Positions 12,763 through 58,042 of a stretch of DNA of 64,000 bases are shown here, piece after piece (the first letter of the stretch is position 1; each line of letters begins with the position of its first letter). This DNA is from a virus. Lineage: Duplodnaviria > Caudoviricetes. The notes below the pieces were generated by a model. The model was not told the DNA's origin, did no database searches, and saw only the letters and a program-made list of their open reading frames with translations. The position numbers and the translations under genes are program-made. The stretch covers positions 139,911-203,910 of IMG/VR virus record IMGVR_UViG_3300035670_000009, one strand, 5' to 3'.

Positions 12763-13161
12763 TCACTCGGCGTTCTGCATCGCCGCGGCGGCAGCAGCCT
12801 GCAGCGTGAGAATCGCGTTGGCGATCTCAGGCTGGCCGACCACCACATCCGCAGCCCCGTTAAACGCCGCCGACTTCTCGGTCGCCGCAGCGTCCGCACC
12901 GCCCATGCCAGCAGCAGCAAGCATGGCATCCAGCTCCTGGTTCACAGCGACCAGGCCCGAAGCGCTCGCCGCGGCGGCCTTCTCCTGCTCAGCCGTGTAG
13001 AGCACATGAAGCTTCTGCGCAGCCGACCACATGTCGGCGGCTTCCTGCTCAGACCGCGGCGCGATGCCGTGAGCAGACAGCTTCTCAAAGAAATACGGCG
13101 CAGCAAGCTCCGACACAATCGTGTTGTAGGCCTGCTCGGCCGCGACTTTTACATCATCCAT
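12763..13161 (-). CDS. Ala-rich head protein with K-x-A motifs
   Basis: 132 aa immediately after the major capsid gene. Contains KVA, EKAAA and EKSAA. SD AAGGAG. Confidence 0.7.
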   Translation of the reverse strand: MDDVKVAAEQAYNTIVSELAAPYFFEKLSAHGIAPRSEQEAADMWSAAQKLHVLYTAEQEKAAAASASGLVAVNQELDAMLAAAGMGGADAAATEKSAAFNGAADVVVGQPEIANAILTLQAAAAAAMQNAE

Positions 13162-13188
13162 GAGTAGTGCTCTCCTTGTTTTGATCCG

Positions 13189-13220
13189 GGGCAGCGGGCG
13201 TTTTTAAGCGCCCGCTGCCC
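13189..13220 (-). terminator. 12-bp hairpin after the major capsid gene
   Basis: GGGCAGCGGGCG-N8-CGCCCGCTGCCC perfect inverted repeat with no U-tract. Likely an mRNA-stabilising stem or weak terminator. Confidence 0.5.
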
Positions 13221-13241
13221 GAAGATCGCTATATCACGGCA

Positions 13242-14168
13242 TCACTTGAAATCGACGCGAGCGAGACCGTTCGTGTGACCGAACGAGCCGCCCTGCGTGT
13301 TGTAGGCGAAGTACTCGAGCATGTACGCCTCACGACGGATGTACATCGTGGTGGGCTCCAGCTCGTAATTCTTGCCAATGAACTTGGGCGACGCGAACAT
13401 GAACATCGAGTCGTCCGGCACAAGGTCGCGCTTGATCGTGACGATCCAGCGGCAGTTGAGGAAGTTGGTCTCCGCCCAACCGTTCTTGATGATGTCCTGC
13501 GAGAAATCACCGCCCATCTCGTCGCGGCCGAACTTCAGCAGCTCTTTGATGGTGATGTTGTTCACCAGGCAGGTCTCGACCTCGAAGTGCGAGGGCGTCC
13601 GCGGCATAACCTTCAGCGCGTCGACAATCGTCTCACGCGTGATGCCGCCGTGGATTTCCTCGTACTGCACGACACCGGACGCAACGTTCGCCACGCCCGG
13701 GGTCGGGAGGACGGCGTTGAACGCGGCGATGAACTTGGAATCCTCTTCCGCCAGCATGTCCTTGATCATGTTGTCGGAAAGGACCTGACGGATGTCGATC
13801 ACGTAGGTACGCAGCTCGTCGACGTCCTTCACAGCGCGGGGCGACACGATCCGGTCAAACATGACGCGGTATCGCGGGCCACGGATGTAGAAGTTGATCG
13901 GGAGCGTCGCGAACGGGAGCGACACAGCCGCCGGGGAGTCGGGTTCCTTGTCGACCACCTTGACGGGCTTGTCAGTGTCAACCTGACGGTCAAGCTCGTC
14001 GTTGGTGATGGTCAGCGGCGGCATAATCCGCCGGTAGAACCCGTCTTCACGCATCTTGGTGCGCGTGAAGTCGTTAACAGCGTCAACGGCCTGCTTCTGC
14101 ATGCCGGGGGTGTCAAGCTGCTCGAAGAGCGTCTCGTTGAGCAGCTGGATTTCTTGCGGAGTGGGCAT
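13242..14168 (-). CDS. Major capsid protein (HK97 fold, encapsulin-like size)
   Basis: 308 aa, strongly GC3-biased. TRTKMREDGFYRRIMPP and IKDMLAEEDSKFI segments. Position after protease, scaffold and cement genes. N-terminal KQA motif at residues 25-27. Confidence 0.8.
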   Translation of the reverse strand: MPTPQEIQLLNETLFEQLDTPGMQKQAVDAVNDFTRTKMREDGFYRRIMPPLTITNDELDRQVDTDKPVKVVDKEPDSPAAVSLPFATLPINFYIRGPRYRVMFDRIVSPRAVKDVDELRTYVIDIRQVLSDNMIKDMLAEEDSKFIAAFNAVLPTPGVANVASGVVQYEEIHGGITRETIVDALKVMPRTPSHFEVETCLVNNITIKELLKFGRDEMGGDFSQDIIKNGWAETNFLNCRWIVTIKRDLVPDDSMFMFASPKFIGKNYELEPTTMYIRREAYMLEYFAYNTQGGSFGHTNGLARVDFK

Positions 14169-14208
14169 TTAAGGAACCTCCATGTTCCGGGTGTAACTAG
14201 GGATGGAC

Positions 14209-14805: not shown

Positions 14806-15231
14806 TCAGGCAGTGGGCGGGTTCAGACCAAGACCCTGGAACAACTTGATGTCCGAGGCCTTGAGCTTGCCGTCACGAGCGCCCACATACCCGCTCGTCA
14901 GGCTGTTCGACGGGTCGTAACCGGCGGTTTTGGTAGCCACCGGCGTGCCCAGGCGTGCCATCTCGGCAGCGTTTTTGTGCGCTGCGAGCTTGATCACGAG
15001 TTCCATGGCGCGCACCGGATTAGCGAGAGCCGCTGCAAGGGCCTCTTTCTGGTGCGGCTCGACCCGTTCGTTTTCGAGACAGGCCTTCACAGCTTCAGGG
15101 ATCAGGCGCGCCAGCTTCTCGTTCTGCTCTTCGCGCTCCTTGATCACCGCGGCGGCCTTGGTCATCGCCGCATCGGAAAAACCGATGTAGTCGACGATGT
15201 TTTGGACCAGCGGGTTATTGCAGTTGGACAT
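14806..15231 (-). CDS. Helical head/scaffold-associated protein
   Basis: 141 aa, coiled-coil-like, with HKNAA and TKTAG motifs. In the head operon. Confidence 0.65.
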   Translation of the reverse strand: MSNCNNPLVQNIVDYIGFSDAAMTKAAAVIKEREEQNEKLARLIPEAVKACLENERVEPHQKEALAAALANPVRAMELVIKLAAHKNAAEMARLGTPVATKTAGYDPSNSLTSGYVGARDGKLKASDIKLFQGLGLNPPTA

Positions 15232-15252
15232 GGTTTCAAACCTCCGTGTGAT

Positions 15253-16542
15253 TTACCGGTTGACGAGTTCCAGAACGTGCTGCTTCATGATGTCGCGCAG
15301 CTGACGCGACCGCTTGGTGCGTGCTTCCTTGACCTGGAACTTGCCGCTCCGCTTGAAGTTGATCACGGCCGCGCCGATCGCGTTCAGGTCGTTCACTGAA
15401 GCCATCTTGGGCGCCATCTCGGCGCCAGCCTCGGGGCCAGCGGGCGGCATGTCGCCTGCGCCGCCACCGCCCTGCAGGGCACCAATCAGAGCCTCGGGCG
15501 GAATGCCCAGCTCTTCAAGCGCCATGGCCAGCTCCTGAACCGCCTCGTCTTCTGACGGGGCGCCAGCGCCCTCGGCACCCATCGGCATTGCACCGGCGTC
15601 TTCGCCGCCCATCATGCCCTCGAGACCGGCGGATTCAGCGCCCATCTCTCCGGCCGGGCTTGCGCCGGACTCGTCGTCACCGGGAGCCGAGTGATCCTCG
15701 CCTTCCGCAGCCTCATCGCCCATGTCCGCAGCCGCGGCCTTTGAAGCGAGGAAGCCAATGAACAGGTCCGCCATCTCGTCGGCCTCGCGGAGCGTGTTTG
15801 CCGCAACTTCGCGCACGGACGCTTCAGCCGCCTCTTTGCTCATGCCGAGCGCCGCGGCCAGCTCGTAACCAGCTTTGAAAGCGGCTTCCTTGCCCTCGCG
15901 AAGAGCTGCGAGATCAGAACCCTCGATCTTGCCGTCGTTGTCAACGTCAAGTTTGTGCTGATCACCCTTCAGCTCCCCCTTCGGCGCGTCCTTCTTCTTT
16001 TCCTTGAGGAAGGCAGGCATCTCGGCGGACTTCTCTGCGCTGGCGTTGAGCAGCGTCGCGAGAATGTCGTTACCAAGCGCCGCGGCTCGGGTCATCGCTT
16101 CTTTGAAAGAAACCGACGAATACTTTTCGCCGTCGTTTGCCTTCGCGGGGTGCGAGGTGCCCGGGTCGTCCTTGTCGCCCTTGTAGTCGTGCTCGGCGGC
16201 CGGATCTTCGCCAGTGGCGGCAACGTTTGTGCCGATGTTCTGCTGGACTTCGTCCTGACGGCCCTCATAGGGAAGCTCGGGAGTGTTGTCCACTGCGAGC
16301 GCGCCCTGCTGCTTCTTGATGTCGGCTTCGTATTCCGACGCGCGCGAACCAGTCTCCGCCTTCTGCACGTTGTTGTCGACGTGCGCGGTGGGGTGCGTAG
16401 ACGCGCCCATGTAAGTGCCGGGGTCCGCCGGGGTGGGGCCGCCCTCCGCCTTTTTCTCGGCGGCTGTTTTCACAGCAGTGTGTGAAATCTCTTCGGCCAG
16501 GGCGTTAAGCTGCGCGAAAAGCGATCGTTGCATCCGTGCCAT
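15253..16542 (-). CDS. Probable scaffolding protein
   Basis: Acidic, Ala/Gly-rich, low complexity, with many K-x-A motifs. Lies between protease and capsid genes. Start reassigned to ATG 16542 (SD AAGGAG). Confidence 0.6.
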   Translation of the reverse strand: MARMQRSLFAQLNALAEEISHTAVKTAAEKKAEGGPTPADPGTYMGASTHPTAHVDNNVQKAETGSRASEYEADIKKQQGALAVDNTPELPYEGRQDEVQQNIGTNVAATGEDPAAEHDYKGDKDDPGTSHPAKANDGEKYSSVSFKEAMTRAAALGNDILATLLNASAEKSAEMPAFLKEKKKDAPKGELKGDQHKLDVDNDGKIEGSDLAALREGKEAAFKAGYELAAALGMSKEAAEASVREVAANTLREADEMADLFIGFLASKAAAADMGDEAAEGEDHSAPGDDESGASPAGEMGAESAGLEGMMGGEDAGAMPMGAEGAGAPSEDEAVQELAMALEELGIPPEALIGALQGGGGAGDMPPAGPEAGAEMAPKMASVNDLNAIGAAVINFKRSGKFQVKEARTKRSRQLRDIMKQHVLELVNR

Positions 16543-16587
16543 GTTCTTCTCCTTTAGGCTCCACACGCTCTAACGCGCGGACTCCAT

Positions 16588-18045
16588 TCAAGTGATGTAA
16601 TTTTGCAGAACACAATGGTTTGCTGTCAACCAGCAATTTCCATATTTCTCGCTGAGGGTCGCGTAAGCCGCAATCTTATAGAAAGCGTACTGCCGCGCAA
16701 GTGCCGAAGCCGCGGGTTTATTATCGCCCGCCTCCTTGGCAAGAGCTGCAACCTGCACGTCGCGAAGCGCGCTATGGTAAGCGCGCTTTTCCACGGCTTG
16801 CGGTCGTACACTGTGCGTCATAGCTACCTTTTCAGCCCAGACCTGGACAGGCATTGCCGCGGCCGGAGCCGGAAGAAATGCGTTGTTTTCAAGCTCGCCC
16901 GCGGTGTCCGGGTCGTTTGCAAGTTTACTGAAAATGCTATCTAGCGCGCTAGTCACAGCGCGCACCAGGTTATCGCTCGCGGCTTTTACAGTAAGCGTTA
17001 AGAAATCGCGGACGGGGAGCACCACTCCCGCATCGGCTAGCGCGCGCAGGACCTGCCCGAATTTCACGTTCTCGCAAGGCGCAAAGTCGACCGGCGGCTG
17101 CGCGTTAGCCGTCGACGCCAGCGCAACTTGTGTCCAGGCGCGGGGGTCGTGGATTACCGCGCGCTCGGCCGCGGCCAGTTTTTCAAGTGCCGCGAGTTGG
17201 CTTTGCAGCTGCAGGCTGGTGGCAACACGATCGAAACCCAGCGGCGCTGTAACGCCCAGCTGTTCGGCCAACTCGGCCCCTGAGAGCACACCAGCGCTGG
17301 CTGCCTTTTGCAGAGTGCCAGAGATGTAGGCAATGCGATCAGCGGGGCGGAAAACGTGGCTGATGTCGAAGAACGTCGGATCGGGGTTGTCGGCGTGAAG
17401 GATGTGGCCGTCAGCGAGAACCCGCCCCAGGTTGTGTTTCAGCCCGCCCGCCTTGCACATGCCGCCATTCTCGACAGAGTCGCAATACTCTGCGCGCGTG
17501 CGAGCTTTGTTTCCGCAGCCAGAGCAAACGTCGAAAGGAATCTTGCAGGCCATCGAAACACCGATATCGTCGCCGCGAGCCAATTTCTCCGTTTCTTTGT
17601 CGGCGAGCAGGCCGCCGTTGCGCTCGGCAGCCTCCTTGCTGGCATTTAGCGCGCAGATCAGCTCGATCCGGTGCATTGGCTCGTTGTAGGCAGCGAGCTT
17701 CACAACGCCGTAGCTTTTGGCCGGGTTCTTGTTGAGATGGTCGCGGTAGAAACGCGCAAACTTCTCGAACGTGTGGTGGTGCTTGCGGCAGCAGTCGCGA
17801 GTGAAACCGTCGGCATTGCGGTTTGGGCCGTAATCTTCGGTGGCGCCGATCGCGATCATGTGGACCGGGATCTCGTCCGCCGCGAACTTGATGCGGCTGA
17901 GGCGCTCGGCGAAATCCACGCCCGCGCGTTTCACAAAAGCGTCCTTGTCGGCTCCCAGTAGGCCGCGGCTGGAAATTTTAATTAGCGACGCTACCGGCTC
18001 GCTGAAATCCTGCGAGTTCGGCTGGATGATCTTGATCATGCTCAT
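16588..18045 (-). CDS. Prohead (maturation) protease, HK97/assemblin-like, with Zn-finger
   Basis: NRNADGF..FYRDHLN..SYGVV..IGVSMACKIPFDVCSGCGN..EYC pattern gives candidate catalytic His and Ser. C-terminal half carries multiple K-x-A motifs. Position upstream of the scaffold. Confidence 0.7.
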   Translation of the reverse strand: MSMIKIIQPNSQDFSEPVASLIKISSRGLLGADKDAFVKRAGVDFAERLSRIKFAADEIPVHMIAIGATEDYGPNRNADGFTRDCCRKHHHTFEKFARFYRDHLNKNPAKSYGVVKLAAYNEPMHRIELICALNASKEAAERNGGLLADKETEKLARGDDIGVSMACKIPFDVCSGCGNKARTRAEYCDSVENGGMCKAGGLKHNLGRVLADGHILHADNPDPTFFDISHVFRPADRIAYISGTLQKAASAGVLSGAELAEQLGVTAPLGFDRVATSLQLQSQLAALEKLAAAERAVIHDPRAWTQVALASTANAQPPVDFAPCENVKFGQVLRALADAGVVLPVRDFLTLTVKAASDNLVRAVTSALDSIFSKLANDPDTAGELENNAFLPAPAAAMPVQVWAEKVAMTHSVRPQAVEKRAYHSALRDVQVAALAKEAGDNKPAASALARQYAFYKIAAYATLSEKYGNCWLTANHCVLQNYIT

Positions 18046-18688: not shown

Positions 18689-20545
18689 TCAAATCATCTG
18701 CCGTTCGAGATTTTTTGTGTCCATCTGAGCTTTTGCAGTTTCGGCCCTGGCCTTCTCCATGTCGATGAGCTGCTTCACATCGAAGTCGGCCATCTGCCCG
18801 GACTCAAGCCGTTTGCGCAGCAGCGCTTGCATAGCGGCCGGGGAGTCAACAAACTGCGGCGCCACGTCTGCCAGCTCGTTGAAAGCCTGCGCCACCTCGG
18901 TTGGATCGTGGCCGGAGATCACCGGGTCGTTAAGCACCATATCGTGGAGCATGCTCTGTGCCCGGATGTTGCGCAGGGCCGTCTCGTGCTCCGGATCGGT
19001 AAGGCTCTGGTAGGCCTTGGTCTTCATCTTTTTCTCGCCTTCAGCCGCGCCCTGCGCCATTCGGCTGGCGATGGCCTTGGCCGCGCTGAGGAAACCGCTG
19101 CGCACCGGAGCAAGGCTAAAGCCGCCGCTTTCGCGCTCGCCGCCGCGGCTACCTTGTCGCCGCTGCCGACCAGAACGTGATGGTTGAGAAGGGCGGCCAC
19201 CGCCGCCAGAACCGCCACCGCCAGAACCGCCACCGCCAGGACCGCCACCGCCAGGACCGCCGCCTACTGGCCCCGCGTCTTCAAAGCTGTCGGGTTCCGC
19301 GCCCTCGTCTGAGTAATCGAGTTCGTCGTCTTCTGGAATTAGCGGCGAGCCGGAGTTTCGCTGTTGCTGCTGGCGCGCAGCTCGATTAGCAGCCTCGTGC
19401 GCCAGTTGCTCGGACCGCATCCGGTCGTATTCATCTTCGGGCATTGTTTCGTCCTGATGCACCCAAACAGGGTTGCCGAGCTTATTGTCAGGCATAACAA
19501 GTCGGAAATTGTCGCCCGGCGATGGTCGCCGATTGACAAAGTCTGCATGCGCTGCCGGGTCGACCTCAGTTCCCTTGTTGCCAAGCCGCGGCGCGCCTTC
19601 TTGCCCAGCGCGCGGCGGATCGACTAGGCCCCAGCGATCGCCAGCCGCCATGGCGCCCTTTAACACCAGCGGTTCATCGGCCGGGTTGTGCAGAATGCTT
19701 CCGGTGACGACCGCTGGCTCAGCTTTTTTTGCTGCGGCCTGCTTCGCCGCGGGCACCCGCGCCTGCGCCTCGTTGTAAGCTTCAAGGGCGCTGAGCACCG
19801 CGGCGGCCAGCTTGCAGGGCTGGCAATCGCCGATGATGACGTCCTTTGTGGCGGCCTGCTTGGTCAGGTGCGGGTAAACGGCGGCTAGCTTGTTAAGCAC
19901 GGTCACGCCGTCCTCGCCGTAGCGCAATTCGGTCTCGCGCACGGCGTCTTGAAAACTCAAATTGCCCGGACGGCGGAAATACTCGTGAAGCTCTTCCATC
20001 GCCGCCGCGGCTTTGCTGTAAGCCGCCGTGGCCTGACGACGAAGCTCTTCCTGGGCCAACTCTGCAGCCCGCTTCTCAGAGGCAGCCCGTCGAACGGCCG
20101 CTTCTTCGTCGCGAGGCGGAGGGACCCACGTCTTCTCGGGCAAAGATATCTTTGCAGCGGCCTCCTTGGACTGCGCGGCCTTGCGGCGCGCCAGCATTCC
20201 GGCAGGACTAACGGCGTAGTCGGCCGAAACCGCATGCGCGCTTGAAAGTTCAGCAGAAGTTTTCACCGCTTTGGGAAACAACGCGTCCATCACGGTGTCG
20301 GCGTCGGCCAGAGGGAAGTCGGCTGCCTTTTCCAGCGTGCTTTCGCCCTGCTCGCGTTGTTTGGTCGTGCGGCCCGTGTTGTAGGCGTGGACCATAAGAT
20401 TGATATGGCCCGCGGGAACGTCCGACTCGCTGGCGCTCTTGATGATCGCGGCGTTCGGAGTAAGACCGGCGTTCACGTAGCTGGCCGCGCGCTCAATCGC
20501 GCTGATCAGCTGTGCTTCAGCCTGTTTCGAAAGGGGCTGCATCAT
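18689..20545 (-). CDS. Large putative internal head protein
   Basis: 618 aa, Ala-rich coiled coil, with SKQAE, IKSAS, EKAAD, SKEAA, TKQAA and AKQAA. Central Gly-rich linker. Confidence 0.65.
   Translation of the reverse strand: MMQPLSKQAEAQLISAIERAASYVNAGLTPNAAIIKSASESDVPAGHINLMVHAYNTGRTTKQREQGESTLEKAADFPLADADTVMDALFPKAVKTSAELSSAHAVSADYAVSPAGMLARRKAAQSKEAAAKISLPEKTWVPPPRDEEAAVRRAASEKRAAELAQEELRRQATAAYSKAAAAMEELHEYFRRPGNLSFQDAVRETELRYGEDGVTVLNKLAAVYPHLTKQAATKDVIIGDCQPCKLAAAVLSALEAYNEAQARVPAAKQAAAKKAEPAVVTGSILHNPADEPLVLKGAMAAGDRWGLVDPPRAGQEGAPRLGNKGTEVDPAAHADFVNRRPSPGDNFRLVMPDNKLGNPVWVHQDETMPEDEYDRMRSEQLAHEAANRAARQQQQRNSGSPLIPEDDELDYSDEGAEPDSFEDAGPVGGGPGGGGPGGGGSGGGGSGGGGRPSQPSRSGRQRRQGSRGGERESGGFSLAPVRSGFLSAAKAIASRMAQGAAEGEKKMKTKAYQSLTDPEHETALRNIRAQSMLHDMVLNDPVISGHDPTEVAQAFNELADVAPQFVDSPAAMQALLRKRLESGQMADFDVKQLIDMEKARAETAKAQMDTKNLERQMI
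19199..19264. repeat. 15-nt tandem repeat encoding a (GGGG-S/P)n linker
   Basis: Units accgccaccgccag(a/g), about 4 copies. Translates on the minus strand as GGGPGGGGPGGGGSGGGGSGGG. Confidence 0.9.
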
Positions 20546-21878: not shown

Positions 21879-24254
21879 TTAAGCGCTTGCGACATTGGAG
21901 AGGTCGGTGTCTGAGCCGCCTTCTTCTGGATACGGCTCAATCGTCTTTTGCTTGAGGAAGAGAATTACGTCGCCCAGCATTTCAAAGGCGTTACGCAACG
22001 AATCTTCCAGCTCTGGCATATCAGATTTGCCATAACGATCAGCGAACCGATCACCGTGCCAATAGAACATGAACAAAATGCGGCCCAGCTTGTCGAGGCC
22101 ATTGGTCAGCTCGCCCATATAACGATCGACCAACGAATCGTCCCGGACAGCGCGCAGCATCGAGCCGATCATCGCCGTGTCGAACACTTCTTTCTGGCCT
22201 GTCTCGGCGGCCTGCATCACGCTGCGGATATCTTTTTTGTCCAGTCGCGTGTTCGGGTTATAGATCTGCCGATCGGTGTTGGCGGCCGCCATGTCCGACA
22301 CCGGCATACCAATATCTATGCCCATTTGAGTTGGGACGTCGGCGCCCATGATTGTTTCGCCGCCCATCACCGGACCCGGATCGGTCGGCGCCGTTGGGCC
22401 CTGATTGACCATCATCGGCGCGCCGTACGGATTGGCATACTTCACGCGGCAAGCGAACTTCTTTTTTGCCGCCGCTGTCTTGAGGATCGCGCGAGCAGCG
22501 TCCTCACGCAGACCATGATGCTCAACAAGCGTCACCAGCGCGGCAATCGGGCTGCGCGCGGCTTCTTTGTTGATCGTGACTTCTGTGCCGTTGTGGTAGA
22601 CCTCGAGCGCGGCGGTCTTGCCTAGCAGTTCAAGCTGCGCGTCAGCCAGGTTGCCGGGCATCAGCGGCGGCATCTCGCTCTGGCCGCATCCGCACGCGCC
22701 CTGGTCCTCGGCCGTCTCATCGTCATCTTCGCCGGGAGCGCACTTGAGCAGCTTGTAGCCCTCGGGGACAAAAATGTCGCCCATCGAGCTGCGCAAACTG
22801 GAACCTTTCTTGCCGTTGAGATGGATCCGGACGCCGTCGCGCCACTTGTCGTAGTTCAGCGGGTCGGTATAGCAGCAGCTGGAGATGTGACCCTTTGGCG
22901 GAAACTTCGAATGGTCCTCCATGTGGACCTCGTAACTCGTCACGCCGAATTCGCTCTCGCCGTACTCGCGGATCACGCGAACCGGAACGGTGGCGTCGCC
23001 GTTCTTGTGCACCAACATGTAGCGCCCGCTCGACGGAAGGCTGTTTGCGTCTGGTAAGCCGTTAAACCACTCTTCTTCTTCCTTGTCGGTCGGGCAGGCG
23101 ACACAAAACACCTGGTCTGCGCGCGTGTTAATCCACTCAGGCTTGCCCTCGGTACGGACGACGGTGACAAAGTCCGAACGCTTCGCGGGCCCCATCGGGA
23201 ACATGGCGATGTAAACCCGCTCAATGTTGCCCGGCTTGACGAGGATGTCGTAAAGACCCGAGCTGGTCGGGTTCCAAAGTTTCTTTTCAACCTGAATGTG
23301 ATAGGGAATCGACACGTTGTCCCGCTCGCGCTGATCGAGAATCAGCACGCCGTCGCGGAGCAGCTTTTCCTGGTCTTCCTCGGTAGTCTCCGGCGGAAGC
23401 TTGGTCTGCATTGTGACGTTCATCGTGATGATCTTGAGCCCTGCGACGGCCGGGCTCTTTTCAGGTGCCTCCGACAGCACACTGGCGATCTTCGGGCGAT
23501 TTTCGCGTTCCTTGGCCGCCGCGATGGCTTCCTTGATCACGCCCAGGCCGTGAAACTCATCAAATGCCTTGGCCAGCGCCGGGGCGTCTTGGAACGTCTT
23601 GACGAGCATGTCGATCGTCGTGACGCGGGCTTCTTTAAGAAACCGCGGCAGATCTAACGCCCGGCCGATTTCCTGAAACACCAGCGCCGTGTTCATCGTG
23701 GCGCACTTAGCAAAAGTCGGCATCGCGGCCGTCATCATCTCGCGCAGCGTTGGCTTGGCCGAGCCAAACTTCGCCGGACTGCGAGAGAGCTGCGTGAAAT
23801 CGGGCTGCCGCTGGCCCATTGACGACCGATTGCGGTCCACCGCGCTGCCCAAAATGTTGGGCTTGCGGTTCACCAAGTAGTTAATCCAGTTTTCTTTAAG
23901 CGGCACGAACATGTCCTGGTTTTTGATGTACAGGAGTTCGTGACCTTTAAGGTCGCCGTTAAGAAAAAAGACTGGAGCATAAAGCCAATTCGAGCCAACT
24001 TTGAACGCAAAAACGCCAATAGCTTTGGTGTTTTCGCGATTGCGGTCTAGCAGCTGAAAACCGATTTCGTGGTCCAGCAGCCGCGGAGCTGAATCACGCA
24101 GATAGGCGTGCGCCAGGTTACTGAACGCCTGCTCAAACGACGTGGAGTCGCCTTTGCCGCCAAAATCGGCGGCTTTCGTTTGCGTCCGGTCGTGCAAACG
24201 TACTACGTTCAGCCAGTGCGCCTGGGACGATTCAGTCTTCTTGCGGTTGTACAC
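21879..24254 (-). CDS. Large conserved-type head protein with K-x-A motifs
   Basis: About 790 aa. Start reassigned to GTG 24254 (GGAGGT SD 7 nt upstream). Contains TKAAD, LKEAR, GKTAA, NKEAA and VKYAN. Confidence 0.65.
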   Translation of the reverse strand: MYNRKKTESSQAHWLNVVRLHDRTQTKAADFGGKGDSTSFEQAFSNLAHAYLRDSAPRLLDHEIGFQLLDRNRENTKAIGVFAFKVGSNWLYAPVFFLNGDLKGHELLYIKNQDMFVPLKENWINYLVNRKPNILGSAVDRNRSSMGQRQPDFTQLSRSPAKFGSAKPTLREMMTAAMPTFAKCATMNTALVFQEIGRALDLPRFLKEARVTTIDMLVKTFQDAPALAKAFDEFHGLGVIKEAIAAAKERENRPKIASVLSEAPEKSPAVAGLKIITMNVTMQTKLPPETTEEDQEKLLRDGVLILDQRERDNVSIPYHIQVEKKLWNPTSSGLYDILVKPGNIERVYIAMFPMGPAKRSDFVTVVRTEGKPEWINTRADQVFCVACPTDKEEEEWFNGLPDANSLPSSGRYMLVHKNGDATVPVRVIREYGESEFGVTSYEVHMEDHSKFPPKGHISSCCYTDPLNYDKWRDGVRIHLNGKKGSSLRSSMGDIFVPEGYKLLKCAPGEDDDETAEDQGACGCGQSEMPPLMPGNLADAQLELLGKTAALEVYHNGTEVTINKEAARSPIAALVTLVEHHGLREDAARAILKTAAAKKKFACRVKYANPYGAPMMVNQGPTAPTDPGPVMGGETIMGADVPTQMGIDIGMPVSDMAAANTDRQIYNPNTRLDKKDIRSVMQAAETGQKEVFDTAMIGSMLRAVRDDSLVDRYMGELTNGLDKLGRILFMFYWHGDRFADRYGKSDMPELEDSLRNAFEMLGDVILFLKQKTIEPYPEEGGSDTDLSNVASA

Positions 24255-24337
24255 AGCGGCCACCTCCGTGCGGCATTTTCAGGGCGTGTAAATAGCGATT
24301 TACCGCGCCGAGACCTCTACATCCTACAGAATCGGGC

Positions 24338-30100: not shown

Positions 30101-31561
30101 GCTGTCCATGTGCGGCAGAGAATATTGAACCTCTTCCCGCGGCATGTACTTCATCTTGCCGCCCACGAGAGCCGCGACCATCGGCAGGTCGGTTTTCTCC
30201 TCGCCAGGAAACGCCACGGGCATGTCGGCCAGTTCGCCCGGCGTCTTGTATTCCTGCGCGCCGGTCTGCATGTTGCGCACCGGCGTATAGATCTTGCCGT
30301 CAGAACCCTTGACGGCGCCCCGCGCGAAGCGCATGTCGACGCCCGCTTTGCCCGACTCCGGCGTGCGCAGAAAATCGATGTAGCCAAGGTGGCTGGGCTG
30401 CACGGCGCGGGATTCCACCGGCACTGCGTCCAGCGAACCGATGCCGCCCTCGCCCATACGAGTCACGCGGTTCTGGTGGTCGAAGATTTCGGCCGGGTTA
30501 ATTTCTTCGAGCGAGCTGCCCAAGCCCGAGCCAATCAACGCAGCATTGATCGCCTTGTTGAAGAACCCCGTAGGCACGTGGTCAAGATTTTTCTTCGCCG
30601 TGGCCTTCCAAAGCAACTTGCGCAGCGCCTGCTTGTCTTTACTGAAGCGCTCAGCAATCAGGTCCTCGGGTCCGACAACGCTTTGATATGCCATTGCGTC
30701 GCGGTCGTCTGGATCGGCCTCTTTGCGATTAACGGCAATGAGCTTTTTCGTAATGTCGAGAATCGCTTCGGGGGTAAGGTTCTTGTATTCCTTGCCAAGA
30801 GTGCGCCGCGTAACGTCGGGGTCGAGTTCCATGCGGGCAAACTCTGTCGCAATAGCTTGCTGCTTAGCGGCCGCGTCCAATCCCGGAGTTTGCTTGTAAA
30901 CAAGTCGCTGGTAGAGCTTGTCGAGAGTGCCCGCGTCGCCCTTCTCCATGTTGACGGCGGTGATCTCGTTGCCCCAAGCGCCGCGGATATCGGCATCTTT
31001 GGCGCCGAGCGCTTTGAGCAGCGGCATCAGCGGAATCTGGGCCTGGCCAATGTTAATTTTCATCACGCCGGTCTTCGGGTCGAGGAAGTACCGGTGCATG
31101 CGTCCCTTGCCGGGCAGCACGTTAACGTGCGCCTCCAGCTCGCCGTTGTCTTTCTCGCGCGTGTAGACGCCCGCCTTGAGCCGCATCTGGTGGGCCAGGG
31201 TGTACTCGACGCCCCGGTTCACAAACGTGCCCGAGTCAGTGAGGTACGGCACGTGCGCAATCGTCTGCTGACGTTTGGCGATCGGCTGCCCGGTGGCGTT
31301 GTCGATTAAATTCCAAGTGCCGGTGAGCCGCCGGTGCAACGAGTTTCCGGTAAGAACGGCCCGTTTTTGATCGCGCTTGTTGTAGCGCTCCGGCCCCGTG
31401 TAATTCACGTCCGAAAGTTGGAGCGTGTAGAGATCGTTTTTGATCGGCTCGATCGCGCTGGCGCTTTGGAGCGCGCGATCAAAAATGCCGGAACGCAGCG
31501 CGTGGATGTCACCAAATGCGCGGTGTTGCGGCGGCGTTTGCCCGAGAATCGAGTCTGGCAT
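27191..31561 (-). CDS. rpoB: DNA-directed RNA polymerase, beta subunit fused to beta-prime N-terminal half
   Basis: Beta motifs: TDSGTFV, HQNRVTRMGEGG, RTPESG, QRAIMGSRM, YEDAVVISE, GDKLTGRFGDKGVV, MKLHH. Beta-prime motifs follow: PVLPPLFRP, GRAVI, NRAPVLHR and catalytic GFNADFDGD. Confidence 0.96.
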   Translation of the reverse strand: MPDSILGQTPPQHRAFGDIHALRSGIFDRALQSASAIEPIKNDLYTLQLSDVNYTGPERYNKRDQKRAVLTGNSLHRRLTGTWNLIDNATGQPIAKRQQTIAHVPYLTDSGTFVNRGVEYTLAHQMRLKAGVYTREKDNGELEAHVNVLPGKGRMHRYFLDPKTGVMKINIGQAQIPLMPLLKALGAKDADIRGAWGNEITAVNMEKGDAGTLDKLYQRLVYKQTPGLDAAAKQQAIATEFARMELDPDVTRRTLGKEYKNLTPEAILDITKKLIAVNRKEADPDDRDAMAYQSVVGPEDLIAERFSKDKQALRKLLWKATAKKNLDHVPTGFFNKAINAALIGSGLGSSLEEINPAEIFDHQNRVTRMGEGGIGSLDAVPVESRAVQPSHLGYIDFLRTPESGKAGVDMRFARGAVKGSDGKIYTPVRNMQTGAQEYKTPGELADMPVAFPGEEKTDLPMVAALVGGKMKYMPREEVQYSLPHMDSTFSALSNMLPLKSMIKGQRAIMGSRMFTQALPLNDAEAPFVQSAVVDKDGISHEDEMGEKLGAVKAQFHGQVVSVSPDEIVLRDRDGNKSTVDLYNDMPFNRKTFWHQTPAVQPGDTIKPGQLLAHSNFTDKQGSAALGKNLRVGYLPFRGKVYEDAVVISESAAKKLTSQHMYQHEAEWSDNTHVGKKAFVSLFPSEYDKKTLAQFDDKGAIQKGTVVNYGDPLVLQAKAKETTYGKVHRGRAGAFSNDTITWDHHSPGIVTDVEHTDKGVSVVVKSTAEMQVGDKLTGRFGDKGVVADIVPDHQMPHDKDGSPMEVLVSPLGLISRVNASQVIEAALGKVAAKTGQPFKIKDFDSEKDIIAFAQNELGKHGLSDTEDVIDPETGRKIKGVLTGHRFFMKLHHTSESKGQGRAMGAYTAEGTPAKGGSEGAKRVGMLDLGALLSHGAGKVIRDAKMVRGQANPEYWSQFMSGYTPPLPKVPHVYEKFVNQLRASGINTVRTGTKTHIMAIADKDVDQLAEDREITSSETVDWKGRLKPVPGGLFDEKLTGGHGGNRWAKISLHEPMPNPVMEEPIRRVLGLTEKQFRSVLAGETQLFDKSGPSAIKDALGRINLPKAIEQCREDIKSGRKTLRDAAVRKLGFLKAAESQGIHPQEWMLTKMPVLPPLFRPVSTMGAKKLPLVADANYLYKELIDSNSALKDASGALAEYGNERLGLYDAMKAVSGLGDPTQPKNQERQVKGFLKHIFGSSPKYGTVQRKLLGTTVDLVGRAVITPNPDLDMDEVALPEDKAWEVYKPFVVRGLVRRGLPRMQALQHVEDRNKEAHAELERQMSSRPIVINRAPVLHRYGMMAFYPKLTKNKVMEVNPVITKGFNADFDGDAMQYHVPSTDDAAKEAVEKMLPSKNLFAAANFKAHYIPQAEFQSGIYLASSRVDKRAKPRVYKSRQDAIKAYRRGEIEVDTPVHIVES

Positions 31562-53138: not shown

Positions 53139-53855
53139 CTACAGCCGCTCTAAGACAGTCGTAACGATCGGATGGCGTACGACGTCGGCGTTTCCAAATT
53201 TCACCGTGGCAATGTTGCGCGCGCTCTCAAGTCGTGCAACAACGTCCGTCAACGGAGCAGGCGAAATAGGCAAGTCGCTCTGTTTGGGGTCACCAGTCAC
53301 AATCATTTTGCTGCCCTCGCCAAAACGCGAGAGAAACAGCTTGAGCTGCGTGTAGGTCGCGTTTTGCGCCTCGTCGAATACGCAGACTGCGTTCGAGAAC
53401 GTACGGCCGCGCATGTAGCAAAGCGGCGCGAGGACCACGGCCTTGTTGATCGTTTCGCGCTTCGCGGATTGCTTGCCGACCAGCGTGTCCATGGCGTCGT
53501 ACAGCGGCTGCATGTACGGATTTACTTTTTCGCCAAACGTGCCCGGCAGGTAACCCAACTTTTCGCCTGCTTCGACGATCGGCCGAGTGAGCACGATCTT
53601 TTCGGCCTGGTTGGTCAATACGGCGTTTAGCGCGTACGCCATCGCAAGAAAAGTCTTGCCAGAACCCGCCGAGCCAAGCAGAAACGTGATGAGGTTTTCT
53701 TCCAGCGCGTTCCAGGCCAGCTTTTGCACTGGCGTGCGCCACGTAATTTCAAGCGGCTGCCGAATCTGCTGTTCGCGGATCTGCTGGCGCTCTTGTCTGC
53801 GGCGCGCTTTTTCTGCAGTTTTCTTTTCCGCAGACTGCGTAGGCTTTTTCCGCAT
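53139..53855 (-). CDS. phoH: PhoH-family ATPase
   Basis: GSAGSGKT, LTRPIVEAGEKLGYLPG, PLCYMRGRTF, DEAQN, GDPKQSD, DVVRHP. Start moved to ATG 53855. Confidence 0.95.
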   Translation of the reverse strand: MRKKPTQSAEKKTAEKARRRQERQQIREQQIRQPLEITWRTPVQKLAWNALEENLITFLLGSAGSGKTFLAMAYALNAVLTNQAEKIVLTRPIVEAGEKLGYLPGTFGEKVNPYMQPLYDAMDTLVGKQSAKRETINKAVVLAPLCYMRGRTFSNAVCVFDEAQNATYTQLKLFLSRFGEGSKMIVTGDPKQSDLPISPAPLTDVVARLESARNIATVKFGNADVVRHPIVTTVLERL

Positions 53856-53893
53856 AGTGCCAGGATTCCTTTCCGTGGCGGGCGGGATAGATA

Positions 53894-55946: not shown

Positions 55947-56605
55947 TACCAGAGAACCTTGACCGGCTTCTGGAACCGAATGCCGCCGCCGGTGCCGAGA
56001 CCCGTCGTATCAATCGGCGAGCGGAAACGCATGTTTGGAATGCGCACGGGCGAACGGAAGTTCACGCCCTGACTGTCGACGACGATGGGATTGCGCAGCG
56101 TGTTGTAGCCACCGTAAAGCGCGAGCCCGGCGCCCAGCGCAGCAGGCGCGCCGCCCTTGGCAATAGATTGCCCGGCGCCTGCAAAGCCCCGAGCAGCGCC
56201 CGACAGTCCGCCAGTGACTAGGCCCGTGACGGGCTTGGTGACGGCGTATGCGCCGCGCGCCATATTGCCTACGCCTTTTGCAACTGCAGGAGCTGCCTTC
56301 ATAGCCCCTCGCGCAAGAGTGCCCAGTCCGCTAAAAAAACTGGCCTCTTTTTCGACAACTAGCCGCACGAGCTGCGCTTCAAAACTTGCGGCTTTTTGCG
56401 CCGGAACAGCCTCGTGCTCGGCGAGAGCGCGCGGCGAAGAAATCGACATCTGATTCATGCTTGTCGGGCCCTGCTGCGGCAGCGGCACGGGCGCAGGCTC
56501 GGGCAGCGGCGGAGCGGGTGGCGCGACTGGATCGCGCTGCATCATTTGCTGCATGAGCATTTGCGGAATGTACTCGTTCGCAAACTTGTAAGCAGCTGAT
56601 GACAC
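55946..56605 (-). CDS. Putative internal head protein (K-x-A family)
   Basis: Pro-rich N-terminal part, QKAAS and EKEAS, then a Gly/Ala amphipathic region. Confidence 0.65.
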   Translation of the reverse strand: MSSAAYKFANEYIPQMLMQQMMQRDPVAPPAPPLPEPAPVPLPQQGPTSMNQMSISSPRALAEHEAVPAQKAASFEAQLVRLVVEKEASFFSGLGTLARGAMKAAPAVAKGVGNMARGAYAVTKPVTGLVTGGLSGAARGFAGAGQSIAKGGAPAALGAGLALYGGYNTLRNPIVVDSQGVNFRSPVRIPNMRFRSPIDTTGLGTGGGIRFQKPVKVLW

Positions 56606-56630
56606 GGCGCGATTCCTTGAATAGATATCT

Positions 56631-57266
56631 TTAGCGCGGCAGTGTGCCCGGAAGCGCAGACGGCGCAGGTGTCGGCGGCATCGGCGCAGAAGGCTGTGGA
56701 TTGCCGCTGTTGTGGAAAAACGAACCCGCGACTAGCGGATTTTTCACCGCGGCATTTATCGTGGCGCGCACTGGGTTCTTCATGAACGTAGCGCCTGCAC
56801 GGACTGGCACAACTTTCTGAATACCCTGAGAAATAGCCTGCGACGCCTGTTCGCCCACACGCCCGGCCAGGTTGCCACCCGCAACGCCCAGCGCGCGGCC
56901 TGCGCCCACAGCACCGCGGCCAGCCACATGAAGGCCCGTCTGGATCGCGCCCCTGGCTGCCTGCGGTAACACGGTGCTAGCGCCAACGCGAGCGCCAGCG
57001 CGCATTAGACCACCCCCGAGGCCCTTCAACCCGCTGGTGATTGCCCCGCCGCCAAACAAACTCAGGCCTGTGTTCGCCGCGTTGCCAAGCGCACCAAGAT
57101 AGTTCCCGCTGCGCAGCGAGTTGTAGGTGTCGTAAATGCCCGTCGGCACGCCCGTCCAAGGATTCGAGTAAAGAGCCACGTCGGCAAGAAGCCCGCGCGC
57201 TTCTTTCTCAGCAGCCTCTTTGGAGAGCGAACCGAGGTGCCGACCAAACTCGTACGGCGTGGTCAT
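56631..57266 (-). CDS. Putative internal head protein (YEFG..KEA leader)
   Basis: Start reassigned to ATG 57266. MTTPYEFGRHLGSLSKEAAEKEA, then a Gly-rich amphipathic body. Confidence 0.7.
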   Translation of the reverse strand: MTTPYEFGRHLGSLSKEAAEKEARGLLADVALYSNPWTGVPTGIYDTYNSLRSGNYLGALGNAANTGLSLFGGGAITSGLKGLGGGLMRAGARVGASTVLPQAARGAIQTGLHVAGRGAVGAGRALGVAGGNLAGRVGEQASQAISQGIQKVVPVRAGATFMKNPVRATINAAVKNPLVAGSFFHNSGNPQPSAPMPPTPAPSALPGTLPR

Positions 57267-57285
57267 ATCGGCATTCCTGGGAAGA

Positions 57286-57945
57286 CTACTTGCTCTTGCG
57301 CCAGCTCTCAAAATTGGTCTGCATCTTCTTACCAGCGTCGACGGCCTTGTTGCTCACGGTCTTCGCCGTGGCCGTGGCCTTGTCGGCCACCTGCTTGGTC
57401 TTATCTTTGACGTTCTGGACCATGTCGCCCACGATGCCCGCTTCCTTACCCGCGTACGACGCCGGACCCATCATCTTGCCCGCGCCCATCAGGCCGCCGA
57501 CTGCGCCAAGGCCGCCGCCAATCAGCTGCGCCGGAACGCGATATTTAGCGGGCAGCGCATTGGCAACCGTGTTGCCAATACCGGCGCCCACGCTACCGCC
57601 GAGCGTCGCGCCAGCGCCGTAACCCATGCCGCGCCCGGCGCCTTCAACTCGGTTGCCCGCTCCGGCCGCGAGCGCGCCACCAACGCCCGCTATGCCAAGA
57701 TTTGCGACCAGATCGTTGCCGCGTGGAAGCGCCTGCAAGACGTTGCCGCCGAGCGTTTTAGCGCCCTGACCAGCCATGCCTGCGAGTCGCTTACCGGCCT
57801 CAATCGTCTGGCGCGCCGCGTCGCGGAACGGCGCGCTCTGCACGCCCTTGCCCGGAATTGTCGCCAAAGCGTTACCAGCCAGGCGGAAATTTACGGCCTG
57901 CTTCTCAAGACTGCCGACAGCGTAACCGAATTCGAAAGCGTTCAT
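57286..57945 (-). CDS. Putative internal head protein (FEFG..KQA leader)
   Basis: Start reassigned to ATG 57945 (SD AGGAG). MNAFEFGYAVGSLEKQA, glycine-zipper helices and GKEAG. Confidence 0.7.
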   Translation of the reverse strand: MNAFEFGYAVGSLEKQAVNFRLAGNALATIPGKGVQSAPFRDAARQTIEAGKRLAGMAGQGAKTLGGNVLQALPRGNDLVANLGIAGVGGALAAGAGNRVEGAGRGMGYGAGATLGGSVGAGIGNTVANALPAKYRVPAQLIGGGLGAVGGLMGAGKMMGPASYAGKEAGIVGDMVQNVKDKTKQVADKATATAKTVSNKAVDAGKKMQTNFESWRKSK

Positions 57946-58042
57946 GACAGCTCCTTGCAACTCTAAATCTGGACTCTGGGCGACCCGGTCATAATACCAA
58001 ACACGGCGCCGCAAGCGCTACGCGAAAAGTACCGCCAGACGC

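What the first reader, a model, noticed from the sequence alone, without database searches (positions are those of the whole stretch)
12763..58014. K-x-A motif shared by about 17 head-region proteins: a candidate protease-processed cargo system
Seen: K-x-A, often (E/S/V)-K-(E/Q/T/S/A)-A-(A/S/G), recurs at apparent domain boundaries. Examples: capsid protein (MQKQA, residues 25-27), scaffold (VKTAA, EKSAE, SKEAA), the protease C-terminal half (QKAAS, EKRAY, AKEAG), and ORFs 12763, 14806, 18055, 18689, 21879, 26443, 31567, 33147, 38067, 39374, 53894, 55946, 56631 and 57286. It is not conspicuous in the tail, fibre or glycosylation proteins. Established: T4 gp21 and phiKZ gp175 process many head proteins at short motifs ending in Glu, and HK97 gp4 cuts after Lys. 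Inference: the protease at 16588..18045 cleaves after K-x-A, and the motif marks a large inventory of packaged and ejected proteins with a specificity different from the Glu-type jumbo-phage proteases.
Basis: partly seen in the sequence, partly recalled or inferred. Interest (0 to 1): 0.8.

Follow-up and report, generated by a model that had tools for sequence, protein, structure and literature searches.

The report
Phage head protease K-x-A motif
A short Lys-any-Ala signature is strongly over-represented, conserved and placed like a cutting site in six to nine head-assembly proteins of an uncultivated 204-kb phage and its relatives. It most likely marks where the phage's own head-maturation protease cuts, a specificity I found no report of for phage proteases.

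Summary
The motif is real, but in fewer proteins than claimed. In six adjacent head-module proteins (12763, 14806, scaffold-like 15253, protease 16588, 18689, 21879), K.A is the top gapped dipeptide of about 1,600 tested: 59 observed against 23.6 expected, z 8.3. K.A[AS] gives 31 against 6.1.

- **Conservation:** In orthologue alignments K and A are conserved while x varies. Conserved K/A column pairs peak only at offset +2 (42, against 3-14 at other offsets).
- **Independent proteins:** The six proteins are not homologous to each other.
- **Other lineages:** The same enrichment recurs around the protease in Salmonella phage Arash, Vibrio phage D69, two distant metagenomic lineages, and 110 representatives of the protease family.
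- **Depletion:** In the 18689 family the conserved N-terminal 300 residues hold 333 sites (100 expected). The variable C-terminal part holds 1 (44.5 expected).
- **Protease fold:** The N-domain folds like T4 gp21 and herpesvirus assemblin (Z 9.7 and 9.5), with invariant H103 and S164. K247-A-A-S sits in the disordered linker just after it.

Best reading: K-x-A followed by a small residue is the cleavage motif of this prohead protease. It works like T4 and phiKZ processing, but with Ala rather than Glu before the cut, as in herpesviruses. Cleavage itself has not been shown.

The parts
16588..18045 (-). Prohead protease precursor, 485 aa. It has an N-terminal assemblin-fold domain (residues ~18-246) and a helical C-terminal half carrying K-x-A sites at 247, 354, 374, 406, 420, 437/439 and 457.
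   Evidence: The AF2 model of residues 1-275 has pLDDT 86. VIA-align gives Z 9.7 to T4 gp21 (5jbl) and 9.5 to VZV protease, with the next unrelated fold at 5.0. H103 and S164 are invariant in 81 sequences. K.A count is 16 vs 4.6 expected. It is 39% identical to Arash gp222 and also matches a Gordonia phage 'capsid maturation protease'.
17296..17307 (-). K247-A-A-S250, the predicted self-release site in the linker just after the protease domain.
   Evidence: Residues 244-252 are the only internal stretch of the model with pLDDT below 50. K247 and A249 are invariant in 17 sequences that include 30-39% relatives. K.A is kept in 70% of 111 family representatives where flank identity is 0.25, and the next residue is S or A. 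Phage G gp19 has KVAS and KIAS at the equivalent place.
15253..16566 (-). Scaffold-like acidic Ala/Gly/Glu-rich protein, 437 aa. Conserved K-x-A sites lie at 33, 38, 155, 179, 226, 244, 276, 387 and 413.
   Evidence: It lies between the protease and the MCP. K.A count is 10 vs 5.7 expected. At sites 33, 226, 244, 276 and 387, K and A are 96-100% conserved, x varies, and the next residue is A, S or G.
14806..15231 (-). Small head-core protein, 141 aa, with conserved sites at 25, 39, 62, 81 and 101; site 86 is kept in 75% of orthologues.
   Evidence: K.A count is 6 vs 1.9 expected, p 0.004. K.A is kept in 100% of 25 orthologues at five of the six sites.
12763..13161 (-). Small Ala-rich protein, 132 aa, downstream of the MCP. 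K-x-A-A sites lie at 5, 61 and 96.
   Evidence: K and A are 77-100% conserved, x identity is only 0.18-0.36, and the next residue is Ala in 18-23 of 23 sequences.
19646..20545 (-). N-terminal 300 residues of the 618-aa protein 18689. This is a conserved pro-domain with about 10 positionally conserved K-x-A sites (7, 36, 73, 127, 158, 178, 219, 229, ~268, 296).
   Evidence: All 27 orthologues keep 10-15 sites here. The total is 333 observed vs 100 expected. It is homologous to the stand-alone Arash gp220 (hhalign E 1.6e-4), with sites 36 and 73 aligned.
18692..19645 (-). C-terminal part of 18689 (residues 301-618). It varies in length and sequence among relatives (146-349 aa), contains a poly-Gly linker, and is a candidate mature or cargo domain.
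   Evidence: K.A is almost absent: 1 site in 27 orthologues against 44.5 expected, and the minimum over 1000 shuffles was 25. Pfam and Atlas gave no match.
21879..24263 (-). 794-aa head protein, homologue of the Arash virion protein gp218. K-x-A sites lie at 30, 186, 210, 244, 258, 549, 595 and 608.
   Evidence: K.A count is 11 vs 4.7 expected, p 0.004. Site conservation is. hhalign probability to gp218 is 80%. The Arash paper reports gp218 with 1149 spectra in virions (PMC10585845).
14088..14096 (-). K25-Q-A27 in the N-arm of the major capsid protein (gene 13242-14168). This is a candidate site for removing a 27-residue N-terminal peptide.
   Evidence: K-x-A is present at the aligned position in every lineage examined: 118 close MCPs (x = Q, T, K, R or V), L037 (KKA), L038 (KQA), Arash (KEA) and Vibrio D69 (KEA). 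It is a single site in a well-conserved stretch, so this is weak evidence on its own.
31358..31366 (-). K66-R-A68 near the N-terminus of the fused RNA polymerase beta/beta'-N protein (gene 27191-31561). This is a candidate pro-peptide boundary.
   Evidence: K and A are 100% conserved in 10 sequences. x is R, K, Q, A or N, and the next residue is V or I. Arash gp206 has KDA-I at the aligned place. A variable insertion lies upstream. Arash gp206 is the most abundant protein in virion mass spectrometry (PMC10585845).

Best explanation
K-x-A, usually followed by a small residue (Ala or Ser in about half of the sites, sometimes Gly, an acidic residue, or Val/Ile), is the recognition and cleavage motif of the prohead serine protease encoded at 16588-18045.

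The enzyme has the herpesvirus-assemblin / T4 gp21 fold. Its likely catalytic residues are His103 and Ser164.

Proposed sequence of events inside the procapsid:
1. The protease frees itself from its helical C-terminal half at K247-A-A|S, and trims that half further.
2. It chops the scaffold-like protein 15253 and the small core proteins 14806 and 12763 into fragments that can leave.
3. It digests the 300-residue pro-domain of 18689 and releases its variable C-terminal domain.
4. It processes 21879.
5. It probably removes 27 residues from the capsid protein and about 68 from the packaged RNA polymerase.

By analogy with the family's known motifs (I/L-x-E in T4, A/S/G-x-E in phiKZ and SPN3US, V/L-x-A|S in herpesviruses), Lys would be P3, Ala would be P1, and the cut would follow Ala.

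Shown here: enrichment, conservation, depletion, and the fold. Inferred: that the motif is cut, by this enzyme, at that bond.
For: 1. **Enrichment.** An unbiased scan of the six head proteins puts K.A first (59 vs 23.6, z 8.3; next best z 5.0). This holds under shuffling within 20-residue blocks (z 7.7). K.A[AS] is 31 vs 6.1.
2. **Positive control.** The same scan on T4 gp67, gp68, gp21 and gp22 recovers the known I.E and L.E motif as its top two pairs.
3. **Conservation.** Motif K and A are more conserved than other K and A (0.87 vs 0.75; 0.85 vs 0.67), while x is less conserved than the average column (0.60 vs 0.72). Other proteins show no such effect.
4. **Register.** Conserved K/A column pairs number 42 at offset +2 and 3-14 at nine other offsets. 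The profile is flat in 17 other proteins.
5. **Independent carriers.** The six carriers are not homologous to each other (hhalign probability below 4%).
6. **Protein-level signal.** Codon usage at the motif equals background.
7. **Deep recurrence around the same protease:**
   - Arash gp219-225: K.A is again the top pair (39 vs 17.8).
   - Vibrio D69: 0268, 0270, 0271 and 0273 are enriched.
   - L037 and L038 show the same.
   - In 110 family representatives, whose C-halves are only 23% identical on average, the part of each protein after the catalytic domain holds K.A 811 times vs 187 expected.
8. **Selection against the motif.** The retained part of the 18689 family has 1 site vs 44.5 expected, while the pro-part has 333 vs 100.
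9. **Proline.** K.A sites with Pro at x or at the next position are the unconserved ones: scaffold 192, protease 443, 21879 site 507, and 24338 site 383 and 53894 site 132.
10. **Fold.** Z 9.7 to T4 gp21 and 9.5 to VZV protease. H103 and S164 are invariant. Inteins in relatives sit next to these residues.
11. **Linker site.** The K247 site lies in the only disordered internal stretch of the model.
12. **Substrate set.** It matches what T4 and SPN3US proteases process (PMC12991175, PMC10052503).
Against: - There is no protein-level evidence. The Arash virion proteome was searched with trypsin specificity, and its supplement holds no peptides.
- Several conserved sites lie in predicted helices of the low-confidence full-length model (406, 420, 457). 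Some in the catalytic domain (39, 95, 137) are probably structural.
- The MCP and RNA polymerase sites are single sites in conserved surroundings.
- Orthologue sets are related, so z-scores from pooled alignments overstate independence.
- The scissile bond cannot be told from sequence. HK97 gp4 cuts after Lys.
- No Pfam protease family matches the sequence, and residue-level superposition of the catalytic residues was not available.
Confidence: 0.68

Rival explanations
1. The motif is the protease's site, but the cut follows Lys (K|x-A), as HK97 gp4 does at the end of the delta domain. Lys would then be P1 and Ala P2'.
For: HK97-type proteases share the fold, and HK97 gp4 cuts after Lys (established knowledge). 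An i/i+2 pattern also fits P1 and P2' pointing the same way on an extended strand. All the enrichment and conservation data fit this equally well.
Against: The small-residue preference at +3 (Ala 0.37, Ser 0.13 and Gly 0.07 per site; Ser 2.9-fold enriched) fits a P1' position, as in herpesvirus A|S and the Ser preference at P1' reported for SPN3US (PMC10052503). The known motifs of this fold (I/L-x-E, A/S/G-x-E, V/L-x-A) are all P3-x-P1.
Confidence: 0.15
2. K-x-A is a selected short motif that is not cut. It could be a docking motif that anchors core proteins to the capsid shell, the portal or the protease, or a recurrent helix-start element of Ala-rich scaffold helices.
For: Many sites lie in Ala-rich, probably helical segments. 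Arash gp223 carries internal repeats that each include the motif. There is no proteomic proof of cleavage.
Against: A purely structural element would not be nearly absent from the variable C-terminal part of 18689 (1 vs 44.5). It would not sit in the disordered linker after the catalytic domain in relatives as far as phage G. It would not recur in non-homologous proteins with only two fixed residues. A docking motif repeated 5-13 times per protein has no precedent that I know of.
Confidence: 0.1
3. The motif is cut by another protease: a host enzyme, or the phage M10 metallopeptidase at 36384-37193.
For: Staphylococcal phage 80alpha uses a host protease for capsid and scaffold processing (PMC5744158, abstract only). 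An M10 peptidase gene is present in the window.
Against: The motif travels with the assemblin-fold protease across hosts as different as Salmonella, Vibrio and unknown aquatic hosts, and it sits in that protease's own C-terminal half. The M10 protein carries a peptidoglycan-binding domain, which suggests a lysis enzyme.
Confidence: 0.04
4. The pattern is chance or a by-product of Lys/Ala-rich composition.
For: The carriers are Ala-rich (9-30% Ala).
Against: Global and local shuffles give z 8.3 and 7.7. The offset control keeps both composition and relatedness, and gives 42 vs 3-14. The pattern is replicated in four further lineages and in 110 family representatives.
Confidence: 0.02

Closest known systems
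T4 gp21 prohead protease and its I/L-x-E substrates (gp23, gp24, gp22, gp67, gp68, internal proteins, gp21 itself)
   Same: Same fold (Z 9.7, 140 residues aligned). Same logic: a P3-x-P1 motif repeated in scaffold and core proteins, in the protease itself and at the capsid protein N-terminus. The same statistical scan recovers both motifs.
   Different: The fixed residues are Lys and Ala, not Ile/Leu and Glu. No Pfam S77 match. The protease carries a 240-residue C-terminal half and a Cys-rich insertion after the Ser strand. The capsid protein would lose only about 27 residues.
phiKZ gp175 / SPN3US gp245 jumbo-phage proteases (A/S/G-x-E) with processed inner-body, ejection and virion-RNA-polymerase proteins
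   Same: A large phage with a virion-associated multisubunit RNA polymerase. N-terminal pro-peptides carry several motif copies (PMC10052503 describes multiple motifs in the gp53 propeptide). A small residue is preferred after the cut.
   Different: Ala rather than Glu before the cut. Far fewer supported substrates (6-9). The RNA polymerase here is two polypeptides with a beta/beta'-N fusion. There is no detectable sequence relationship.
Herpesvirus assemblin precursor (pUL26: protease, R-site, scaffold domain, M-site; cuts at Ala|Ser)
   Same: Fold (VZV Z 9.5, HCMV Z 6.9). The precursor is a protease domain followed by a linker site and a helical C-terminal domain. Ala would be the last residue of the released protease (PrV assemblin ends in Ala225, PMC4498786), followed by Ser.
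   Different: P3 is Lys, not Val/Leu. Catalytic His-His-Ser was not verified. The scaffold is a separate gene with no detectable similarity to the protease's C-half (hhalign probability 3%), and there is no nested in-frame gene.
HK97 gp4 (Peptidase S78) family
   Same: A phage prohead serine protease of the same fold class. Lys is part of a known HK97 cleavage site.
   Different: No Pfam S78 match. The HK97 capsid protein carries its own delta domain, whereas here a separate scaffold-like protein exists. The register K-x-A plus a small residue suggests a cut after Ala.

Membership tests
Assemblin-fold prohead serine proteases (herpesvirus S21, T4 gp21 S77, HK97 gp4 S78) | Characteristic beta-barrel fold shared by T4 gp21 and herpesvirus proteases | tested here: met
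   Model pLDDT 86. VIA-align Z 9.7 with rmsd 3.4 over 140 residues to 5jbl_A, Z 9.5 with rmsd 2.9 over 114 residues to 1vzv_A, then 6.9 for HCMV; unrelated folds score 5.0 or less. The top Foldseek rows are nearly all herpesvirus proteases and gp21, but at weak E-values of 0.045 or higher.
Assemblin-fold prohead serine proteases (herpesvirus S21, T4 gp21 S77, HK97 gp4 S78) | Catalytic His followed by catalytic Ser, both invariant | tested here: inconclusive
   H103 and S164 are invariant in 81 sequences. They are 61 residues apart, compared with 55 in T4 (H85/S140, PMC12991175). Inteins in relatives are inserted beside both. No residue-level superposition was available, and hhalign to gp21 gave no meaningful alignment.
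Assemblin-fold prohead serine proteases (herpesvirus S21, T4 gp21 S77, HK97 gp4 S78) | Sequence match to a curated protease family (Pfam S77, S78 or S21) | tested here: not met
   No Pfam family at E of 0.01 or better. No PDB sequence match with a profile. The only match is PHROG 2774, of unknown function. It is a separate sequence family within the fold.
Assemblin-fold prohead serine proteases (herpesvirus S21, T4 gp21 S77, HK97 gp4 S78) | Gene placed in the head module next to the scaffold and the major capsid protein | tested here: met
   Gene order is 18689, 18055, protease, scaffold-like 15253, 14806, 14209, MCP 13242. Arash gp220-226 has the same order.
Protease-processed head-protein systems (T4, phiKZ, SPN3US) | One short motif recurs in scaffold and core proteins, in the protease itself and at the capsid protein N-terminus | tested here: met
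   The T4 control is.
Protease-processed head-protein systems (T4, phiKZ, SPN3US) | Glu at P1 (x-x-E motif) | tested here: not met
   No x.E pair appears among the top 20 enriched pairs of the six proteins.
Protease-processed head-protein systems (T4, phiKZ, SPN3US) | Mature virion proteins start right after the motif | not testable with these tools
   Needs N-terminomics. The Arash supplement holds annotation only.
Herpesvirus pUL26-type precursor | Self-release site between the protease domain and a C-terminal assembly domain, with Ala at P1 and Ser at P1' | tested here: inconclusive
   K247-A-A-S lies in a disordered linker and is conserved across the family. Cleavage was not observed.

The most novel reading that the evidence does not exclude
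K-x-A|(A/S) is the ancestral specificity of a very large, mostly uncultivated family of prohead proteases. The family has about 2,600 clusters at 50% identity, and may reach as far as Bacillus phage G and the Bixzunavirus mycobacteriophages. This would give tailed phages an Ala-P1 enzyme like herpesvirus assemblin. In addition, the 300-residue K-x-A-rich N-domain of 18689 (stand-alone as Arash gp220) would be a modular, self-destructing delivery vehicle. Different lineages would have fused different C-terminal cargo domains to it, for packaging into the capsid and release by the protease.
Probability: 0.3. Interest if true: 0.7.

Novelty: new variant of a known kind. Interest (0 to 1): 0.55.

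Why it matters
Prohead protease specificity decides which proteins stay in a capsid, which are destroyed, and which are delivered into the host. Only a few specificities are known, and the jumbo-phage ones are all Glu-type.

- **Annotation.** A sequence-readable Lys-x-Ala code would allow mature virion proteins, pro-peptides and cargo to be annotated across a widespread aquatic phage clade. That clade has cultured members in Salmonella and Vibrio.
- **Evolution.** It would link phage and herpesvirus proteases through Ala at P1.
- **Engineering.** It would offer a handle for loading foreign proteins into capsids.
- **Defence.** It bears on bacterial defences that sense prohead proteases through decoy loops (PMC12991175).

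The claim can be tested directly on phage Arash.

Tried and rejected
- **Family searches.** Pfam and PHROGs on ten head-module proteins gave nothing except PHROG 2774 for the protease. Pfam on ten 18689 orthologues and on 18055, 14209, 33147 and 56631 gave nothing.
- **ESM Atlas.** Searches with 21879 and with the 18689 C-domain gave no usable hit.
- **PDB.** A profile search of PDB sequences found no match.
- **Full-length protease model.** It was poor (pLDDT 58). Only the N-domain model was used.
- **hhalign of the protease family to T4 gp21.** It gave only a 7-residue match, KISSRGL to GVSSRGL, with E 0.076. This was not used as evidence.
- **Arash mass-spectrometry supplement.** It contains annotation and no peptides, so no N-termini could be read. 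The coverage values in Arash Table 2 are not informative, for example 100% coverage from 2 unique peptides.
- **Literature.** Searches found no report of a Lys/Ala prohead-protease motif. This is only absence in a limited library.
- **Beta / beta' junction.** I considered whether RNA polymerase site 1132 marks processing at that junction. It is not conserved in Arash, so I dropped the idea.
- **DNA-level cause.** I considered one, such as the genome's 12-bp palindrome. Motif codon usage equals background and the palindrome is an unrelated AT-rich DNA word, so I dropped it; coincidence of palindrome and motif positions was not checked.
- **Complex prediction.** No enzyme-substrate complex prediction was run.
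- **Distal ORFs.** Orthologues for 31567, 55946, 56631 and 57286 were too few (0-2) for a conservation test.

Full report
**Context**

The window is the last 64 kb of a complete 203,910-bp IMG/VR viral contig with direct terminal repeats. Nearly all of its genes lie on the minus strand.

The head module runs from about 27.2 kb down to 12.7 kb. It lies next to a fused RNA polymerase beta/beta'-N gene (27191-31561, 1456 aa) and a beta'-C gene (24338-26212).

The only cultured relatives found are Salmonella phage Arash and three Vibrio phages. Their MCPs are 27-28% identical to this one, and their protease N-halves about 39%. Gene order is shared with Arash gp206-gp226. In the Arash virion proteome, the two polymerase subunits are among the most abundant proteins (PMC10585845).

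**Is the motif more than chance?**

Per-protein shuffles gave the following K.A counts:

| Protein | Observed | Expected |
|---|---|---|
| protease 16588 | 16 | 4.6 |
| 18689 | 13 | 5.2 |
| 21879 | 11 | 4.7 |
| 14806 | 6 | 1.9 |
| 15253 | 10 | 5.7 |
| 26443 | 4 | 1.3 |
| 55946 | 4 | 1.4 |

No excess appears in the MCP, 18055, 31567, 33147, 38067, 39374, 53894, 56631 or 57286.

I then scanned all residue pairs at gaps of 0-3 in the six carriers (12763, 14806, 15253, 16588, 18689, 21879).
- K.A came first: 59 vs 23.6, z 8.3. The runner-up scored z 5.0.
- Shuffling within 20-residue blocks, which preserves local composition, still gives z 7.7.
- K.A[AS] is 31 vs 6.1, z 10.5.

As a positive control, the same scan on T4 gp67, gp68, gp21 and gp22 returned I.E and L.E as the top two pairs. 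That is the known gp21 motif (PMC12991175).

Genome-wide, the surplus of K.A[AS] lies in these head proteins. That run flagged five of the six, because its gene call missed 12763. K.A within residues 4-48 occurs in 10 of 15 head-module proteins (4.1 expected) and is at chance elsewhere. Motif codons follow background usage, so the signal is at the protein level.

**Is it under selection?**

I fetched 36 related loci from IMG/VR, with proteases 61-79% identical plus two distant ones at 43% and 31%. Orthologue alignments show the following.
- At many sites K and A are 95-100% conserved while x and the flanks vary. Examples are 12763 site 61, scaffold sites 33, 226, 244, 276 and 387, and protease sites 247, 354 and 457. 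The next residue is usually Ala or Ser.
- Motif K and A are more conserved than other K and A (0.87 vs 0.75, p 0.019; 0.85 vs 0.67, p 0.00016).
- x is less conserved than the average column (0.60 vs 0.72).
- In 14 other proteins there is no such difference.
- A control that keeps both composition and relatedness counts pairs of conserved K and A columns by offset. It gives 42 at +2 and 3-14 at the nine other offsets, and is flat (6-13) in 17 other proteins.
- Sites with Pro at x or at the next position are the unconserved ones.
- The six carriers share no detectable homology (hhalign probability below 4%). The motif is therefore not inherited from a common domain.

**Recurrence in distant lineages**

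- **Arash:** K.A is again the top pair in gp219-225 (39 vs 17.8, z 5.8) and not in the surrounding proteins. gp220, gp223 and gp225 carry 7-10 sites each.
- **Vibrio D69:** the pattern holds in proteins 0268, 0270 (the protease), 0271 and 0273.
- **Metagenomic lineages L037 and L038:** the same.
- **The wider protease family:** it has 2,603 representatives at E of 0.001 or better. In 110 full-length representatives, whose C-halves are only 23% identical on average, the part of each protein after the catalytic domain contains K.A 811 times against 187 expected. Ser is enriched 2.9-fold at the next position.
- **Phage G and mycobacteriophage Alice:** a weaker excess (z about 3). Phage G gp19 has KVAS and KIAS directly after its protease domain.

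**Depletion where a cut would be harmful**

In the 18689 family the N-terminal 300 residues are conserved and keep 10-15 sites in every orthologue. The C-terminal part differs in length (146-349 aa) and in sequence.

Over 27 distinct orthologues, the N-part has 333 K.A (100 expected). The C-part has 1 (44.5 expected, sd 6.4, minimum of 1000 shuffles 25). Even allowing for relatedness, this combination of enrichment and avoidance is what a cleavage site predicts. A structural motif does not predict it.

The N-domain is homologous to the stand-alone Arash gp220 (hhalign E 1.6e-4), with two K-x-A sites aligned and different x.

**The enzyme**

- With an 81-sequence alignment, residues 1-275 fold with pLDDT 86.
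- An exhaustive structural search gives T4 gp21 (Z 9.7, rmsd 3.4, 140 residues), VZV protease (Z 9.5) and HCMV protease (Z 6.9). Unrelated folds score 5.0 or less. Foldseek ranks the same families first, but at weak E-values.
- H103 and S164 are invariant. Their order and spacing resemble H85/S140 of gp21.
- There is no Pfam match, so this is a separate sequence family within the fold.
- The only disordered internal stretch of the model, residues 244-252, holds K247-A-A-S. That is the position of the herpesvirus release site, where PrV assemblin ends in Ala (PMC4498786).

**Mechanism proposed**

The known motifs of this fold are all P3-x-P1, and a small residue is preferred after K-x-A. I therefore read Lys as P3, Ala as P1, and the cut as following Ala.

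The predicted events are:
1. Self-release and trimming of the protease.
2. Fragmentation of 15253, 14806 and 12763.
3. Digestion of the 18689 pro-domain, with release of its C-terminal domain.
4. Processing of 21879.
5. Possibly, removal of 27 residues from the MCP. K-x-A is present at the aligned place in all five lineages.
6. Possibly, removal of 68 residues from the RNA polymerase. K-x-A-V/I is conserved, including in Arash.

None of these cuts has been observed. A cut after Lys remains possible.

The link to the protease and the non-Glu specificity are well supported by inference. The 'large inventory of ejected cargo' is not.

In a limited literature search I found no report of a Lys/Ala motif for a phage prohead protease. 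I class this as a new variant of a known kind of system. It can be tested directly on the cultured relatives.

Noticed in passing
Relatives of window 16588-18045: L037:10001-12517, and proteins P0003, P0020, P0047 and about 30 others of 600-1300 aa: Many protease genes of this family are interrupted by inteins carrying LAGLIDADG homing endonucleases. There are at least four or five insertion points, near residues 70, 90, 102, 168-172 and 184-188 of the window protein. These sit beside the invariant H103 and S164-M-A-C167. One protein has two inteins.
   Followed up: partly
window 17962-17982 (protease residues 22-28): The nearly invariant N-terminal K-I-S-S-R-G-L resembles the T4 gp21 catalytic-serine stretch G-V-S-S(140)-R-G-L. 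hhalign gives E 0.076 over 7 residues. It lies before the His in the chain, in a low-confidence part of the model. Coincidence or a substrate-like or regulatory segment: unexplained.
   Followed up: no
window 17455-17547 (protease residues 167-197): Five conserved cysteines (C167, C174, C177, C188, C197) form an insertion right after the putative catalytic Ser strand. This looks like a metal-binding knuckle.
   Followed up: no
window 24338-26212 and 27191-31561: The multisubunit RNA polymerase is encoded as two polypeptides: beta fused to the N-part of beta' (1456 aa), and the C-part of beta' (624 aa). The genes lie inside the head module. Their Arash homologues are among the most abundant virion proteins, so the enzyme is probably packaged.
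   Followed up: partly
window 56631-57311 and 57286-58014: Two adjacent Gly/Ala-rich proteins probably start at internal Met16 and Met24 (orthologues begin there). They share a 15-17-residue leader, (Y/F)-E-F-G-x3-G-S/N-L-x-K-x-A. It resembles a short capsid-targeting leader that ends in the motif. Only one orthologue each was available, so this could not be tested.
   Followed up: partly
window 36384-37193; 39374-40507; 40518-41189; 53139-53897: Other recognisable genes: an M10 metallopeptidase with a peptidoglycan-binding domain (probably for lysis); a 2H phosphoesterase with DUF5661; a PAS-domain protein; and PhoH.
   Followed up: no
window 657, 10043, 11057, 20142, 21554, 28413, 36259, 39078, 46504, 47672, 52195, 56621: Twelve copies of the 12-bp palindrome AWAGATATCTWT, which the scan has already noted genome-wide. 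It is an AT-rich DNA word unrelated to the K-x-A protein motif; coincidence of positions was not checked.
   Followed up: partly
window 19196-19267 (18689 residues ~427-450): A long Gly-rich run (Gly tracts interrupted by single Pro or Ser residues) followed by an Arg/Ser/Gly-rich stretch, inside the motif-free C-terminal part of 18689.
   Followed up: no
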